Shown in pieces: positions 12,880 through 14,991 of a stretch of DNA of 64,000 nt. The DNA comes from the human T2T-CHM13v2.0 reference genome, Homo sapiens. The stretch lies in assembly GCF_009914755.1 (NCBI RefSeq), contig NC_060943.1; one strand, 5' to 3'. The notes under the pieces are model-generated. The model did no database searches and had not been told where the DNA came from. It saw nothing but the letters and a program-made list of their open reading frames with translations. How positions within the stretch are numbered: position 1 is the first letter of the stretch; every line of letters begins with the position of its first letter. The translations under genes and the position numbers were made by a program.

Positions 12880-14991
12880 CAAAGTAAACAGTTCTATGTG
12901 CCAGGAGAACCCTAAATCTCATATGGTTCTAAGGGCAGAAAGCCACACACGCACCGGCAAAAAGCAAGAGATTCAAGGAAAAGCTGAGCAAAGACAGACA
13001 GGAAAACACACACATGATGAGCCAGCTTGTAGAGCTAGAACTGAGATGGAGAGAGGCACGAGTGGGTAACAGAGTGTGCTCCCCAGAACAGGTGGAGAGA
13101 ATGCCTTTTTCATGCCCTGAGGATAGGCTGGGTAAGGCTTGTGCTCGACAGTCAAGGACTATTTTTTTCCCCAGGCGTCTACAAGAGACCTTCCTTCTCA
13201 GCTCAACTGTGCCCTGCAGTAAGTAATGATGGAGAGAATGTGACTTTGCTCTGCAGCTCTGGAAGCTCATTTGACCTGTGCCTTCTAACGAGGAAGGTAA
13301 GGCCCCTGGACACTGGCTCACTGGGGTGCAGAGACAGAGTGGGGCATTCAGGCCAACTTCTCTCTGGGTCTTGGGGCTGGTGATGGGACCTCTAGATGCT
13401 GCAGCTCTCTGTCGATGGCTCTGCCTGTGAGTGATCAGCCCTAGATGACCACTGTTACTGGGGGTAGCCCATGCCTGCTGCATGCCCTGTGAAACACTAA
13501 ATCATATAGCCACGTCTGAGGGACAGCCTGCTGGAGACATGGGAATCTTAGGGATTCCAGACAAAATGAAGCAATGAGAAACACAAAGAGGAAAAGAGAG
13601 GTTGAGTATGACAGTGGTGTCAGGGTGTAGGGTGGTAGACAGGGCAGCTCCACACTCTCCACTGCTTCCTGTCTGGAGGCCCACTTTGGGGTCCTACTTA
13701 TCCAGGTGAGTGAAGGAAGAGGTCAGGACAAACACAGGAGGTGAAGCCAGATACAGTGTGGGGAGATAAGCAGTGGCCTCAGCCTCTAGCCCTTTTCCAT
13801 CTTCCAGAAGCCCCTCCTGAGCTCTCATCACAGACAGATTTCCCATTTGGAAACCCAGATATTTATCATGCCGGGGGGGGGAGGCAATGTCTCTTGATTA
13901 TGGGGACTTTCCATCACCAGGCACCTGCTAGTCCTCTCTATACCTTCCCTTCAGGAAAGGAATTGTCCCTCATGGGATTCCAGGGAAGAGACCCCAGGAC
14001 CCCTATCAGTCACTAGGGAGATGACAGAGTAGAGGAAGTCAGGGGACCAACCCTCCACAGAGAATGGTCCTACTTCAGTGGGGTGAGGGAAACTCTCACT
14101 CATCCATTTGCTGTCCTGTTACCTCGGAACCCTAAGAGAACTTGTTAGTCACACACAGAATCTACCCCTGAATGTGGTGTGCAAAGTGGGGCTCTTAGCC
14201 TCCAGTGTGAAGTCCCTGGGAAGATGGAATGTCCCTGTGTGAGTGAAGGCTGTGCCACCGCCCAGCTATGTGGCCTTGGGCTAGGCAACCCCTCCCAGGT
14301 CCCCAGTTCCCCATCTGCATCGGAGACTGTGGCCAGTGCGGGAATCCACAAGGCCCTTCAGCCTCCAAAGCTCTGGGACAGAGGCCTCGTCCACAGGGAG
14401 GAAGGGGTCAGAGTGACCTGAGTCCCTACTCAGGAGCGAGTCTAATCCACTCTCCATCGGGGCCTGTGGGGAAGGGAAGATGAAGAAACGGAGCCTGCAC
14501 CTGGCTATGTGGGCGCAGTAGATTAAGGGGAGGATGAGGGTTCCTGAGAGTGTGTCATGTGGCAGAGACCCTGCAGCACACTCAGGAAGGGCTCTGGAAG
14601 GATCCAAGGAAATTTTCCAAGAAGAGGGCAGAGTAAGTGACAGAGACCCTCAACCATGGATTTCACTGAGGTGCCCATGATGACATAGGGAGAACGGGGG
14701 TGTCTGGGCAGGAAGAATATCGTCAGGGTGAAATGAATGGTGATGAGCTTCGTGTCAGAGCTCCTGTGGAGGGAGGGGCCTGGCCCACATGAAAAGGTCT
14801 CTGATCCTACCCCAGCCCCCAGCCCCTGTTCTCCAGGATGACACTGTGGGAATTCCATCAGGAGGGGTGTGATAGGGCTGGTCTTCCTGGCTCGATTCAC
14901 AACACTGGCTGGGGACTGGGAACCCATGGGGAGCCACAGGTGGAAAGGGAGGAGCCTCAGTGAACCCAGCAGGAACAAACATAGGGTCTGA
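12880..14991 (+). pseudogene. fossil LRC receptor fragment: KIR-like D2 exon (13175-~13463), KIR-like stem exon (14126-14176), LILRA/FCAR-type Arg-TM exon (14823-14991)
   Basis: Frameshift-corrected translations [56 protein letters not shown] (51 nt); APVLQDDTVGNSIRRGVIGLVFLA..GDW. Flanking introns resemble KIR introns 4 and 5 in this window. Confidence 0.75.

What the first reader, a model, noticed from the sequence alone, without database searches (positions are those of the whole stretch)
12880..14230. Fossil's introns match KIR introns 4/5 but lack the L1/Alu block, suggesting an ancestral KIR intron state
Seen: 13620 cagggtgtagggtggtagacagggcagctccacactctcc resembles KIR3DL3 38821 cagggggcaggatggcagacagggcacctccaaaccctcc. 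13800 cttccagaagcccctcctgagctctcatcacagacagat resembles 39002 ttcccagaagcccatcctggcctgtcacccacagagagat. 12970-13025 resembles 37464-37515, and 14020 gatgacagagt resembles 55951. The D2-to-stem intron is about 660 bp versus about 3170 bp in KIR2DS2, which carries a ~2.6 kb L1/Alu block there. Inference: the fossil split from KIR before that L1 inserted. This is non-coding support, independent of the peptides, for KIR rather than LILR ancestry.
Basis: partly seen in the sequence, partly recalled or inferred. Interest (0 to 1): 0.7.

Follow-up and report, generated by a model that had tools for sequence, protein, structure and literature searches.

The report
Ancient KIR-like gene relic, repeat-free introns
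A decayed, unannotated piece of an old KIR-type immune-receptor gene lies between two LILR pseudogenes, and its introns line up with present-day KIR introns minus the mobile elements those picked up later, which is real but largely what one expects of a very old duplicate.

Summary
Window 13171-13842 aligns colinearly with the D2 exon plus the first ~350 bp of intron 5 of both KIR genes in the window (63.9 % and 62.5 %; the intron part alone beat all of 200 shuffles). A second, weaker arm (13990-14229) aligns with the end of intron 5, the stem exon and the start of intron 6 of the second KIR gene (beat all of 200 shuffles, top hit in a whole-window scan). A weak intron 4 match also stands out.

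Between the two arms the KIR gene carries about 2.57 kb (53308-55880) made of one minus-strand L1 and four Alus. The relic has 147 unaligned bases there. Its intron is 663 bp, against 598 bp of non-repeat KIR intron.

No LILR intron matches. A tree places the exon with KIR D2 (100/99).

New here: about 650 bp further on (14795-14919) lies a relic of a transmembrane exon of the LILRA type, with arginine, and not of the KIR type. The relic is therefore either a mosaic or an early activating KIR-like gene. KIR3DX1 could not be compared. Interest is modest.

The parts
12709..13025 (+). Weak match to the middle of KIR intron 4 (KIR3DL3 37319-37516; second KIR 51452-51785).
   Evidence: HOXD70 local scores 2952 and 2537, 0 of 60 shuffles each. 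They are the top hits of 150 whole-window comparisons, the next best being 1912. About 66 % identity over 182 columns. I could not exclude that both are copies of one old interspersed repeat.
13175..13463 (+). Decayed D2-type Ig exon (289 bp against 294 bp in KIR). It has at least two frameshifts and an in-frame stop; both cysteine codons are still visible.
   Evidence: tblastn: KIR3DL3 residues 219-260 = 13174-13302, 53 % identity, E 1.7e-9; the second half reads in another frame and holds a stop. DNA identity 69.9 % and 69.0 % to KIR D2, against 60-61 % to LILRP2 D2-D4. The ML tree places it with KIR D2, support 100/99. In PDB the best single domain is KIR D2 at 39.6 bits, against 19 bits or less per LILR domain.
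13464..13842 (+). Left arm of intron 5, colinear with the first ~350 bp of KIR intron 5 (38690-39045; 52878-53224).
   Evidence: score 80, z about 43, 0 of 200 shuffles. 67 % identity over 337-344 columns, K80 0.44-0.45.
13843..13989 (+). Unaligned middle of the intron. It sits where KIR genes carry the L1/Alu block, and no repeat remnant was detected.
   Evidence: No HSP to any L1 or Alu copy in the window at E <= 0.1. There is only a faint match to the 83 bp that precede the first Alu in the KIR gene (7 of 300 shuffles reach it).
13990..14126 (+). Right arm of intron 5, colinear with the last ~130 bp of intron 5 of the second KIR gene (55922-56048).
   Evidence: 67.5 % identity over 120 columns.
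14127..14176 (+). Stem-exon counterpart by position (50 bp against 51 bp). The acceptor AG is changed to GG; the donor GT is kept.
   Evidence: Alignment. The stem region with its flanks against the KIR stem region gives z 8.6, 0 of 300 shuffles; against the LILRP2 stem region, 26 of 300. The exon itself is only 56 % identical (28 of 50 columns), so the assignment rests on its flanks.
14177..14229 (+). Start of the intron 6 counterpart, where detectable KIR homology ends.
   Evidence: The alignment ends at 14229 = 56150. 14230-14794 matches neither KIR intron 6 nor the LILR stem region.
14795..14919 (+). Relic of a LILRA-type transmembrane exon (exon start about 14823) with about 28 bp of upstream intron. 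One base is deleted. It reads NSIRRGVIGLV, against NLIRVAVAGLV in LILRP2.
   Evidence: Against LILRP2 22013-22135: score 2804, z 8.7, 0 of 300 shuffles. Against LILRP1 9908-10061: score 2631, z 8.0, 0 of 300. Against the two KIR TM exons: 212 and 85 of 300 shuffles reach the score. These are the top two of 150 whole-window comparisons, the next best being 2043. Peptide level: 5 of 2000 shuffles.
53308..55880 (.). Comparator: the repeat block in intron 5 of the second KIR gene. It is one 5'-truncated L1 on the minus strand, broken by three Alus and adjoined on the left by a fourth.
   Evidence: L1 ORF2p matches. L1 DNA homology to the copy at 28577-29325 runs to 55880. Alu copies with below-threshold SRP-RNA-like hits at all four places. 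KIR3DL3 shares the pre-Alu flank and the L1 (53200-53320 = 39014-39135 at 90 %; 53680-54051 = 39503-39874 at 87 %).

Best explanation
Window 12709-14919 is the dead, unannotated 3' portion of a very old gene of the KIR lineage. It holds part of intron 4, the D2 Ig exon, intron 5, the stem exon and, after about 650 bp, a transmembrane exon.

It arose by duplication within the leukocyte receptor complex long before the KIR genes of today diversified, and has since decayed without constraint. After the split, the lineage leading to KIR3DL3 and its neighbours received one L1 in intron 5 and then Alus into and beside it. It also gained a (GATA)n expansion in intron 4. The relic received none of these, so its intron 5 (663 bp) equals the KIR intron with the inserts taken out (598 bp).

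Shown here: homology by descent of the exon and of both arms of intron 5; the repeat nature of the extra 2.57 kb; the absence of repeat remnants in the relic; and the LILRA type of the transmembrane exon.

Inferred: the order of events, the age (on the order of 100 million years), and that the transmembrane exon belonged to the same gene. No present function is expected.
For: - One colinear HSP spans the exon plus 377 bp of intron, for both KIR genes. The intron part alone gives z about 43, 0 of 200 shuffles.
- A second arm covers the end of intron 5, the stem exon and the start of intron 6: 0 of 200 shuffles, and the top hit of 150 real-sequence comparisons.
- The intron 4 match is the top hit of 150 comparisons in both KIR genes, at corresponding places.
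- LILR introns do not match.
- Tree: relic plus KIR D2 at 100/99. The AU test rejects relic plus LILR D4 (p 0.0036; 15 Ig exons).
- The extra KIR sequence is L1 and Alu. The arms end at 53224 and restart at 55922 at the latest, while the block is 53308-55880.
- The relic has no repeat hits.
- Intron distances are K80 0.44-0.46 for relic to KIR, against 0.14-0.18 between the two KIR genes, which share the L1.
- Introns are retained, so it is not a processed copy.
- tblastn finds only this one Ig exon outside the four annotated genes (2 of 77 HSPs).
Against: - The intron 4 arm is weak. One scoring scheme gave 24 of 100 shuffles for the second KIR gene. Without RepeatMasker I cannot exclude that it is a match between two copies of one old repeat family.
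- The stem exon itself is only 56 % identical, and its acceptor site is lost.
- Only one KIR gene serves as comparator for the right arm, because KIR3DL3 lacks that region.
- 147 bp in the middle do not align, so the empty insertion site cannot be shown base by base. Target-site duplications were not found or sought in full.
- The right edge of the L1 is placed only to within 55880-55921. ORF2 protein searches on the last pieces found nothing.
- The transmembrane exon is not of KIR type, which does not fit a simple KIR copy.
- The relic's half-domain peptide does not reach any Pfam Ig model.
- KIR3DX1 and other species were not compared.
Confidence: 0.8

Rival explanations
1. Two unrelated scraps lie side by side: a fragment of a KIR-lineage gene (intron 4 to the start of intron 6) and, separately, a fragment of a LILRA-type gene (transmembrane exon) left by the tandem duplications that made LILRP1 and LILRP2. 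On this reading the relic never was one gene with a KIR-like ectodomain and a LILRA-like anchor.
For: - The 565 bp between them (14230-14794) match neither family.
- The relic lies between two LILRA-type pseudogenes.
- KIR and LILR TM exons are not alignable with each other at the DNA level (73 and 105 of 300 shuffles reach the score), so the switch of type is abrupt.
Against: - Both pieces are on the same strand, in the order stem then TM, at gene-like spacing.
- There is only one stem-like and one TM-like exon, and no LILR-type stem exon upstream of the TM relic (189 and 196 of 300 shuffles).
- Both pieces are similarly diverged (K80 0.47-0.55 for the TM, 0.40-0.46 for the KIR-like part).
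Confidence: 0.4
2. The relic belongs to the KIR3DX lineage (a scrap of a KIR3DX1-like gene) rather than being a sister or an earlier branch of the KIR3DL-lineage genes in the window.
For: - The divergence, about three times the KIR3DL3 to neighbour distance, is of the order expected for the 3DL/3DX split, which papers put at about 135 million years (passages of PMC4258407 and PMC8562567).
- A KIR3DX-like D2 fragment inside the LILR region is reported for the pig (passage of PMC6182393).
Against: - Not testable here: no KIR3DX1 sequence could be obtained (one search found nothing).
- KIR3DX1 lies between LAIR2 and LILRA2, about 180 kb from the KIR cluster (PMC1559706), not at this place.
- D2 is said not to resolve the two lineages (passage of PMC4258407).
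Confidence: 0.25
3. The relic once carried the L1/Alu block and lost it by deletion, so its short intron is derived and not ancestral.
For: The middle 147 bp do not align, so a scar cannot be excluded base by base.
Against: - It would take the removal of five separate insertions with breakpoints close to the outer edges of the block, leaving a length (663 bp) close to the non-repeat KIR intron (598 bp).
- Alus are confined to primates (established knowledge, recalled), while the relic is about three times as diverged from the KIR genes as they are from each other.
- There is no repeat remnant.
Confidence: 0.03
4. The relic is a LILR-derived Ig exon, and the intron resemblances to KIR are chance or low-complexity matches.
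For: - The exon also aligns weakly with LILRP1 and LILRP2 Ig exons (60-61 %, E 4e-6 to 3e-5 against the whole window).
- In the PDB search, whole-chain E-values rank LILRB1 first, because several domains add up.
Against: - The intron alignment is 0 of 200 shuffles for both KIR genes and absent for LILR introns.
- The real-sequence scan puts the KIR introns on top.
- The AU test rejects LILR D4 placement, p 0.0036.
- Per domain, the KIR D2 score is about twice the best LILR domain score.
Confidence: 0.02

Closest known systems
KIR3DL-lineage genes of the human KIR cluster (KIR3DL3 and the KIR2DS2-like gene in this window)
   Same: The D2 exon, both arms of intron 5, part of intron 4 and the stem exon lie in the same order and on the same strand. 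The relic's exon groups with KIR D2.
   Different: - About 67-70 % identity only.
- It lacks the L1, the four Alus and the (GATA)n array.
- No exons lie upstream of D2.
- The TM exon is not of KIR type.
- The reading frame is broken.
KIR3DX1 (formerly KIR3DL0), the divergent single-copy KIR inside the LILR region
   Same: It is an old KIR-lineage gene lying among LILR genes and non-functional in humans. [quoted passage not shown]
   Different: KIR3DX1 is a full gene with three Ig domains and a long tail with ITIMs, and lies between LAIR2 and LILRA2. This relic is a 3' fragment between LILRP1 and LILRP2 with an arginine-type TM exon.
Use of intron repeats as KIR lineage markers (MLT1D/LTR33A, MSTB1 and MER70B present in KIR3DL-type genes, MLT1D absent from KIR3DX1; lemur KIR3DP)
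   Same: An L1 element is named at intron 5 of KIR3DL1/3DS1 in a figure legend of PMC3606631.
   Different: Those markers lie in introns 3 and 6 (placement recalled in part), which the relic does not keep or which I could not annotate. The marker used here is the intron 5 L1.
LILRA-type (activating) LILR genes, here the pseudogenes LILRP1 and LILRP2
   Same: The TM exon relic, with a few dozen bases of the intron before it, aligns with their TM exon and keeps the arginine-bearing motif.
   Different: The Ig exon, the introns and the stem region do not align with LILR. The stem-to-TM spacing is about 650 bp, against 148 bp in LILRP2.
Pig KIR3DX-like D2 domain fragment in the LILR region
   Same: It is a lone KIR-type D2 exon fragment stranded among LILR genes (passage of PMC6182393).
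   Different: It is in a different species and at a different place (near the LAIR2-equivalent position). No sequence was available for comparison.

Membership tests
KIR gene family (by descent) | The Ig exon groups with a KIR domain type rather than with LILR domains. | tested here: met
   ML tree of 15 Ig exons from the window: relic plus KIR D2 at 100/99. AU p 0.0036 against relic plus LILR D4. In PDB the best single domain is KIR D2 at 39.6 bits.
KIR gene family (by descent) | Introns flanking D2 are homologous to KIR introns 4 and 5. | tested here: met
   Intron 5 left arm: 0 of 200 shuffles. Right arm: 0 of 200. Intron 4: weaker, 0 of 60, but top of 150 comparisons in the scan.
KIR gene family (by descent) | A separate ~51-bp stem exon after D2. 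| tested here: inconclusive
   A positional counterpart lies at 14127-14176 with the donor GT kept and the acceptor lost. The exon itself is 56 % identical, and the significance comes from its flanks.
KIR gene family (by descent) | A KIR-type transmembrane exon. | tested here: not met
   No match to either KIR TM exon (212 and 85 of 300 shuffles reach the score). It matches the LILRP1 and LILRP2 TM exons instead.
KIR gene family (by descent) | An open reading frame, a leader and D0/D1 exons (a working gene). | tested here: not met
   There is only one Ig exon, frameshifted and holding a stop. It is a pseudogene fragment.
KIR3DL lineage (as against KIR3DX) | Lineage-typical intron repeats (MLT1D/LTR33A, MSTB1, MER70B; L1 in intron 5). 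| tested here: not met
   The intron 5 L1 is absent. The other markers are not testable, as there is no repeat library and introns 3 and 6 are not retained or not alignable.
KIR3DX lineage | Closer to KIR3DX1 than to KIR3DL-type genes in exons and introns. | not testable with these tools
   KIR3DX1 lies outside the window. The protein search returned nothing. No eukaryote genome is held.
LILR family | Ig exons and introns homologous to LILR genes. | tested here: not met
LILR family (activating, LILRA type) | A TM exon with the arginine motif, which also serves as the last coding exon. | tested here: met
   14795-14919 against LILRP2 and LILRP1: z 8.7 and 8.0, 0 of 300 shuffles each. Peptide level: 5 of 2000 shuffles. 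Whether it was the last exon cannot be told, because an Alu follows at 15096.
Processed (retrotransposed) pseudogene | No introns, with a poly-A tail. | tested here: not met
   Intron homology is retained on both sides of the D2 exon.

The most novel reading that the evidence does not exclude
The relic is what is left of a single ancient activating receptor that joined a KIR-type membrane-proximal Ig domain and stem to an arginine-bearing, LILRA/FcR-gamma-type transmembrane exon. It would be either a stem-lineage 'proto-KIR' that kept the anchor of its LILR-like ancestor, or a third KIR lineage beside KIR3DL and KIR3DX. It would give a physical intermediate between LILR and KIR gene structures in the human genome. 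It would also imply that the KIR-type transmembrane exon was acquired, or diverged sharply, after this branch split off.
Probability: 0.3. Interest if true: 0.6.

Novelty: new member of a known kind. Interest (0 to 1): 0.35.

Why it matters
This is a small addition to the map of the leukocyte receptor complex: an unannotated KIR-lineage pseudogene fragment about 20 kb before KIR3DL3.

Its repeat-free introns order three events: the split of the relic, then the L1 and Alu insertions, then the split of KIR3DL3 from its neighbour. They also give a non-coding check on the ancestry of the Ig exon.

The part that could matter more is the pairing of a KIR-like ectodomain end with a LILRA-type anchor. 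If both came from one gene, that bears on how KIR arose from LILR-like ancestors and on how activating and inhibitory forms were exchanged.

For annotation and for read mapping in KIR and LILR typing, the relic is too diverged to cause trouble.

Tried and rejected
- **Other KIR exons in or near the relic.** tblastn over 12000-15100, 8000-17200 and the whole window found only the D2 exon. The minus-strand 'TM' hit at 14709-14771 has E 0.3-0.9 and was dropped.
- **LILRP1's own 3' end as the source of the TM relic.** Rejected: LILRP1's stem and TM region is at 9798-10534.
- **A second copy of the relic after LILRP2.** No hit.
- **Pfam on L1 ORF pieces.** Nothing: 0 meaningful families for 9 pieces. 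PDB LINE-1 ORF2p was used instead. 3 of 5 pieces matched and 2 of 5 did not.
- **Pfam on the relic's in-frame half domain.** No Ig model was reached, while KIR3DL3 D2 and LILRP2 D4 did reach one as controls.
- **Large protein database, for KIR3DX1 or other mammalian relatives.** 4 candidates, none scored. The database seems to hold no mammalian proteins, so this says nothing.
- **BLASTP of the two short TM peptides.** No alignment was reported. My own Smith-Waterman with shuffles was used instead.
- **PDB with the TM peptide.** 0 hits.
- **Rfam on 11900-15200.** 0 hits at gathering scores. ORF listing found no coherent frame.
- **The 'novel Ig-like receptor family' of pigs and bovids.** Its human copy is a processed pseudogene outside the complex (passages of PMC6182393 and PMC6775213), so it is not this relic.
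- **Literature on this relic.** Searches, plus passages of eight papers, gave no mention. Wilson et al. 2000 (PNAS) was not held. Wende 2000, Volz 2001 and Martin 2000 were seen only as references and were not looked up. They may describe it.
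Full report
**Setting**

The window is human chr19 (T2T-CHM13, per the table added to the finding). It runs from LILRP1 through LILRP2 into KIR3DL3 and the next KIR gene.

The stretch in question, 12118-15095, is bounded by repeats. An L1 piece, an Alu and another L1 piece lie at 10990-12117, and a run of Alus starts at 15096. It carries no RefSeq gene.

LILRP1 is not its source. 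LILRP1's homology to LILRP2 covers 5406-8018 and then 9798-10534, which includes its own stem and transmembrane exon.

**Check of the observation**

*Main alignment.* A blastn of 11000-16500 against the rest of the window gave 220 HSPs at E <= 1e-3. Nearly all were Alu or L1. Four were not:
- 13171-13842 with KIR3DL3 38392-39045: 63.9 % over 695 columns, E 7e-58.
- 13171-13837 with the second KIR gene 52580-53224: 62.5 %, E 1e-49.
- Two short weak matches of the exon to Ig exons of LILRP2 and LILRP1: 60-61 %, E 7e-6 and 5e-5.

The KIR HSPs start four bases before the D2 exon and run about 355 bp into intron 5.

*Intron part alone.* Taken without the exon, 13466-13842 scores 80 against either KIR gene. 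Dinucleotide shuffles give 12.1 +/- 1.6, and 0 of 200 reach the observed score. Against three LILRP2 introns, 148, 77 and 30 of 200 shuffles reach the observed score. KIR intron 5 likewise does not align with LILRP2 introns: 46 and 36 of 200.

*Second arm.* With +1/-1 scores, 13990-14229 aligns with 55922-56150 of the second KIR gene (0 of 50 and 0 of 100 shuffles). With HOXD70-type scores it is 13921-14229 with 55851-56150, score 3490 against 1312 +/- 164 (0 of 200). This covers the last ~130 bp of intron 5, the 51-bp stem exon (56049-56099) and 51 bp of intron 6.

*Real-sequence null.* I slid three query pieces over the whole window in 1.5-kb chunks on both strands, giving 150 comparisons each.
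- The arm above was the top hit; the next best scored 1985.
- For the upstream piece, the top hits were KIR3DL3 intron 4 (12829-13025 with 37319-37516, score 2952) and the corresponding place in the second KIR gene (12709-13076 with 51452-51785, score 2537). The next best scored 1912.

This arm is the weakest: under +1/-1 scoring the second-KIR match was not significant (24 of 100 shuffles).

**The repeat block**

Intron 5 of the second KIR gene is 52878-56048, 3171 bp.

*L1.* Stop-to-stop frames on its minus strand match solved LINE-1 ORF2 protein:
- residues 1172-1223 at 53888-54046 (E 1e-15);
- residues 1089-1120 near 54831-54926 (E 1e-4);
- residues 915-959 near 55275-55409 (E 2e-11).

These lie in the order expected for one element on the minus strand. 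Two further pieces gave no protein match, and Pfam gave nothing. At the DNA level the element matches another L1 copy in the window. 54847-55411 aligns with 29325-28736, and 55738-55880 with 28720-28577, so it reaches at least 55880. Its T-rich 3' end lies at about 53680-53693.

*Alus.* Four Alus lie at 53308-53640, 54053-54399, 54511-54828 and 55415-55713. They were identified by similarity to the many other copies and by below-threshold SRP-RNA-like Rfam hits at all four places.

The remaining non-repeat intron is 430 + 168 = 598 bp. With the boundaries read from the alignments, the relic's D2 exon is 13175-13463 and its stem counterpart 14127-14176. Its intron is then 663 bp.

*Edges.* The left arm stops at 53224, 83 bp before the first Alu. 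The right arm restarts between 55881 and 55922. The relic has 147 unaligned bases between the arms, with at most a faint likeness to the 83 bp before the Alu (7 of 300 shuffles).

*No remnants.* No part of 12118-15095 matches any L1 or Alu in the window: 8 HSPs at E <= 0.1 including the self-match.

*Intron 4.* In KIR intron 4, the sequence right after the shared piece is a (GATA)n-type array (37732-38064). The relic lacks this too.

**What the exon is**

tblastn with the two KIR proteins finds only one Ig exon here. Across the whole window, only 2 of 77 HSPs fall outside the four annotated genes, and both are on this exon.

The first half reads in frame (53 % identity to KIR3DL3 residues 219-260). 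The second half is in another frame and holds a stop. So there are at least two frameshifts.

In PDB the best single-domain score is KIR D2 (39.6 bits for KIR2DL1). LILR chains rank higher only because three or four domains of 19 bits or less add up.

I built a maximum-likelihood tree of 15 Ig exons from the window: the relic, KIR D0/D1/D2 from both KIR genes, and LILRP1 and LILRP2 D1-D4. It joins the relic to KIR D2 with support 100/99. Holding it with LILR D4 costs 26.9 log-likelihood units (AU p 0.0036). The relic's branch is long (0.35), as expected for a dead exon.

**Age**

On aligned columns, the relic-to-KIR distance is K80 0.40-0.42 in the exon and 0.43-0.46 in the three intron pieces. 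Between the two KIR genes the same pieces give 0.14-0.18. That is a ratio of about three.

KIR3DL3 shares the pre-Alu flank (90 %) and the L1 (87 %) with its neighbour. The order is therefore: relic split, then L1, then at least the first Alus, then the split of the two KIR genes.

Alus are confined to primates (recalled). With neutral rates of 1-2.2e-9 per site per year (recalled), 0.45 corresponds to roughly 100-200 million years. Papers give about 135 million years for the KIR3DL/KIR3DX split (passages of PMC4258407 and PMC8562567).

This is inference, and distances from optimised alignments are underestimates. It does mean that the missing block is what any duplicate of this age must show.

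**A transmembrane exon of the other family**

The next best scored 2043.

Targeted tests:

| Comparison | Result |
|---|---|
| Relic TM region vs LILRP2 TM exon | z 8.7, 0 of 300 shuffles |
| Relic TM region vs LILRP1 TM exon | z 8.0, 0 of 300 shuffles |
| Relic TM region vs the two KIR TM exons | 212 and 85 of 300 shuffles reach the score |
| LILRP2 TM exon vs the two KIR TM exons | 73 and 105 of 300 shuffles reach the score |
| Relic stem region vs KIR stem region | z 8.6, 0 of 300 shuffles |
| Relic stem region vs LILRP2 stem region | 26 of 300 shuffles |

The alignment starts about 28 bp before the LILRP2 exon start (22038 = 14823) and has one deleted base. The frame reads NSIRRGVIGLV, against NLIRVAVAGLV in LILRP2. 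At the peptide level 5 of 2000 shuffles reach the score. BLASTP reported no alignment for these short peptides, and PDB gave none.

There is no LILR-type stem exon before it, and 14230-14794 matches neither family.

The relic is thus KIR-like from intron 4 to the start of intron 6, and LILRA-like at the membrane anchor. It may be one gene (hybrid or early form) or two scraps. I cannot tell which, and put the one-gene reading near even odds.

**Literature**

Eight full-text searches gave no mention of a KIR-like fragment between LILRP1 and LILRP2. Nor did what I read of eight papers: passages of PMC8562567, PMC1193534, PMC6182393, PMC6775213, PMC4258407, PMC3606631 and PMC2757895, and part 1 of the text plus passages of PMC1559706.

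Points taken from them:
- The pig paper reports a KIR3DX-like D2 fragment in the pig LILR region.
- The 'novel Ig-like' family has only a processed copy outside the complex in humans, so it is not this relic.
- A figure legend in PMC3606631 names an L1 at intron 5 of KIR3DL1/3DS1.
- PMC4258407 states that D2 does not resolve the 3DL and 3DX lineages.

Wilson 2000 was not held. Wende 2000, Volz 2001 and Martin 2000 were seen only as references. No supplements were opened. A prior description there, or in GENCODE, cannot be excluded.

**Verdict**

The thing is a pseudogene fragment of a known family, and its repeat-free introns are the expected pre-insertion state.

The LILRA-type anchor is the one feature that could make it more than a footnote. 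It needs KIR3DX1 and other species to be compared.

Noticed in passing
window 9798-10534 (and 5406-8018): LILRP1's homology to LILRP2 continues into a stem exon, a TM exon and a 3' part at 9798-10534 (70 % over 777 columns). That is far beyond the RefSeq span 5817-7720. Its TM peptide has His where LILRP2 has Arg.
   Followed up: partly
window 47434-60985: The gene that the table calls KIR2DL3 (model span 47434..78148, running out of the window) has Lys in its TM peptide. Its D1 exon scores best against PDB KIR2DS2 chains (285.2 bits, against 282.1 for KIR2DL3).
   Followed up: partly
window 37732-38064 and 20593-21537: There is a (GATA)n-type simple-repeat array in KIR3DL3 intron 4. It is similar, on the other strand, to a masked array in the LILRP2 intron between D4 and the stem.
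   Followed up: partly
window 39046-44156 vs 55881-56150: KIR3DL3 has no counterpart of the end of intron 5 plus the stem exon of its neighbour. This agrees with KIR3DL3 having no stem exon in the table.
   Followed up: partly
window 12118-12708 and 14230-14794: Two stretches of the relic region match nothing else in the window on either strand. The first may lie beyond the 5' breakpoint of the relic, or it may be an old repeat that I could not name.
   Followed up: partly
window 10990-12117 and 15096-16738: The relic is framed by repeats. On the 5' side are two L1 pieces that are not colinear with each other, with an Alu between them. On the 3' side are four Alus in a row before LILRP2.
   Followed up: no
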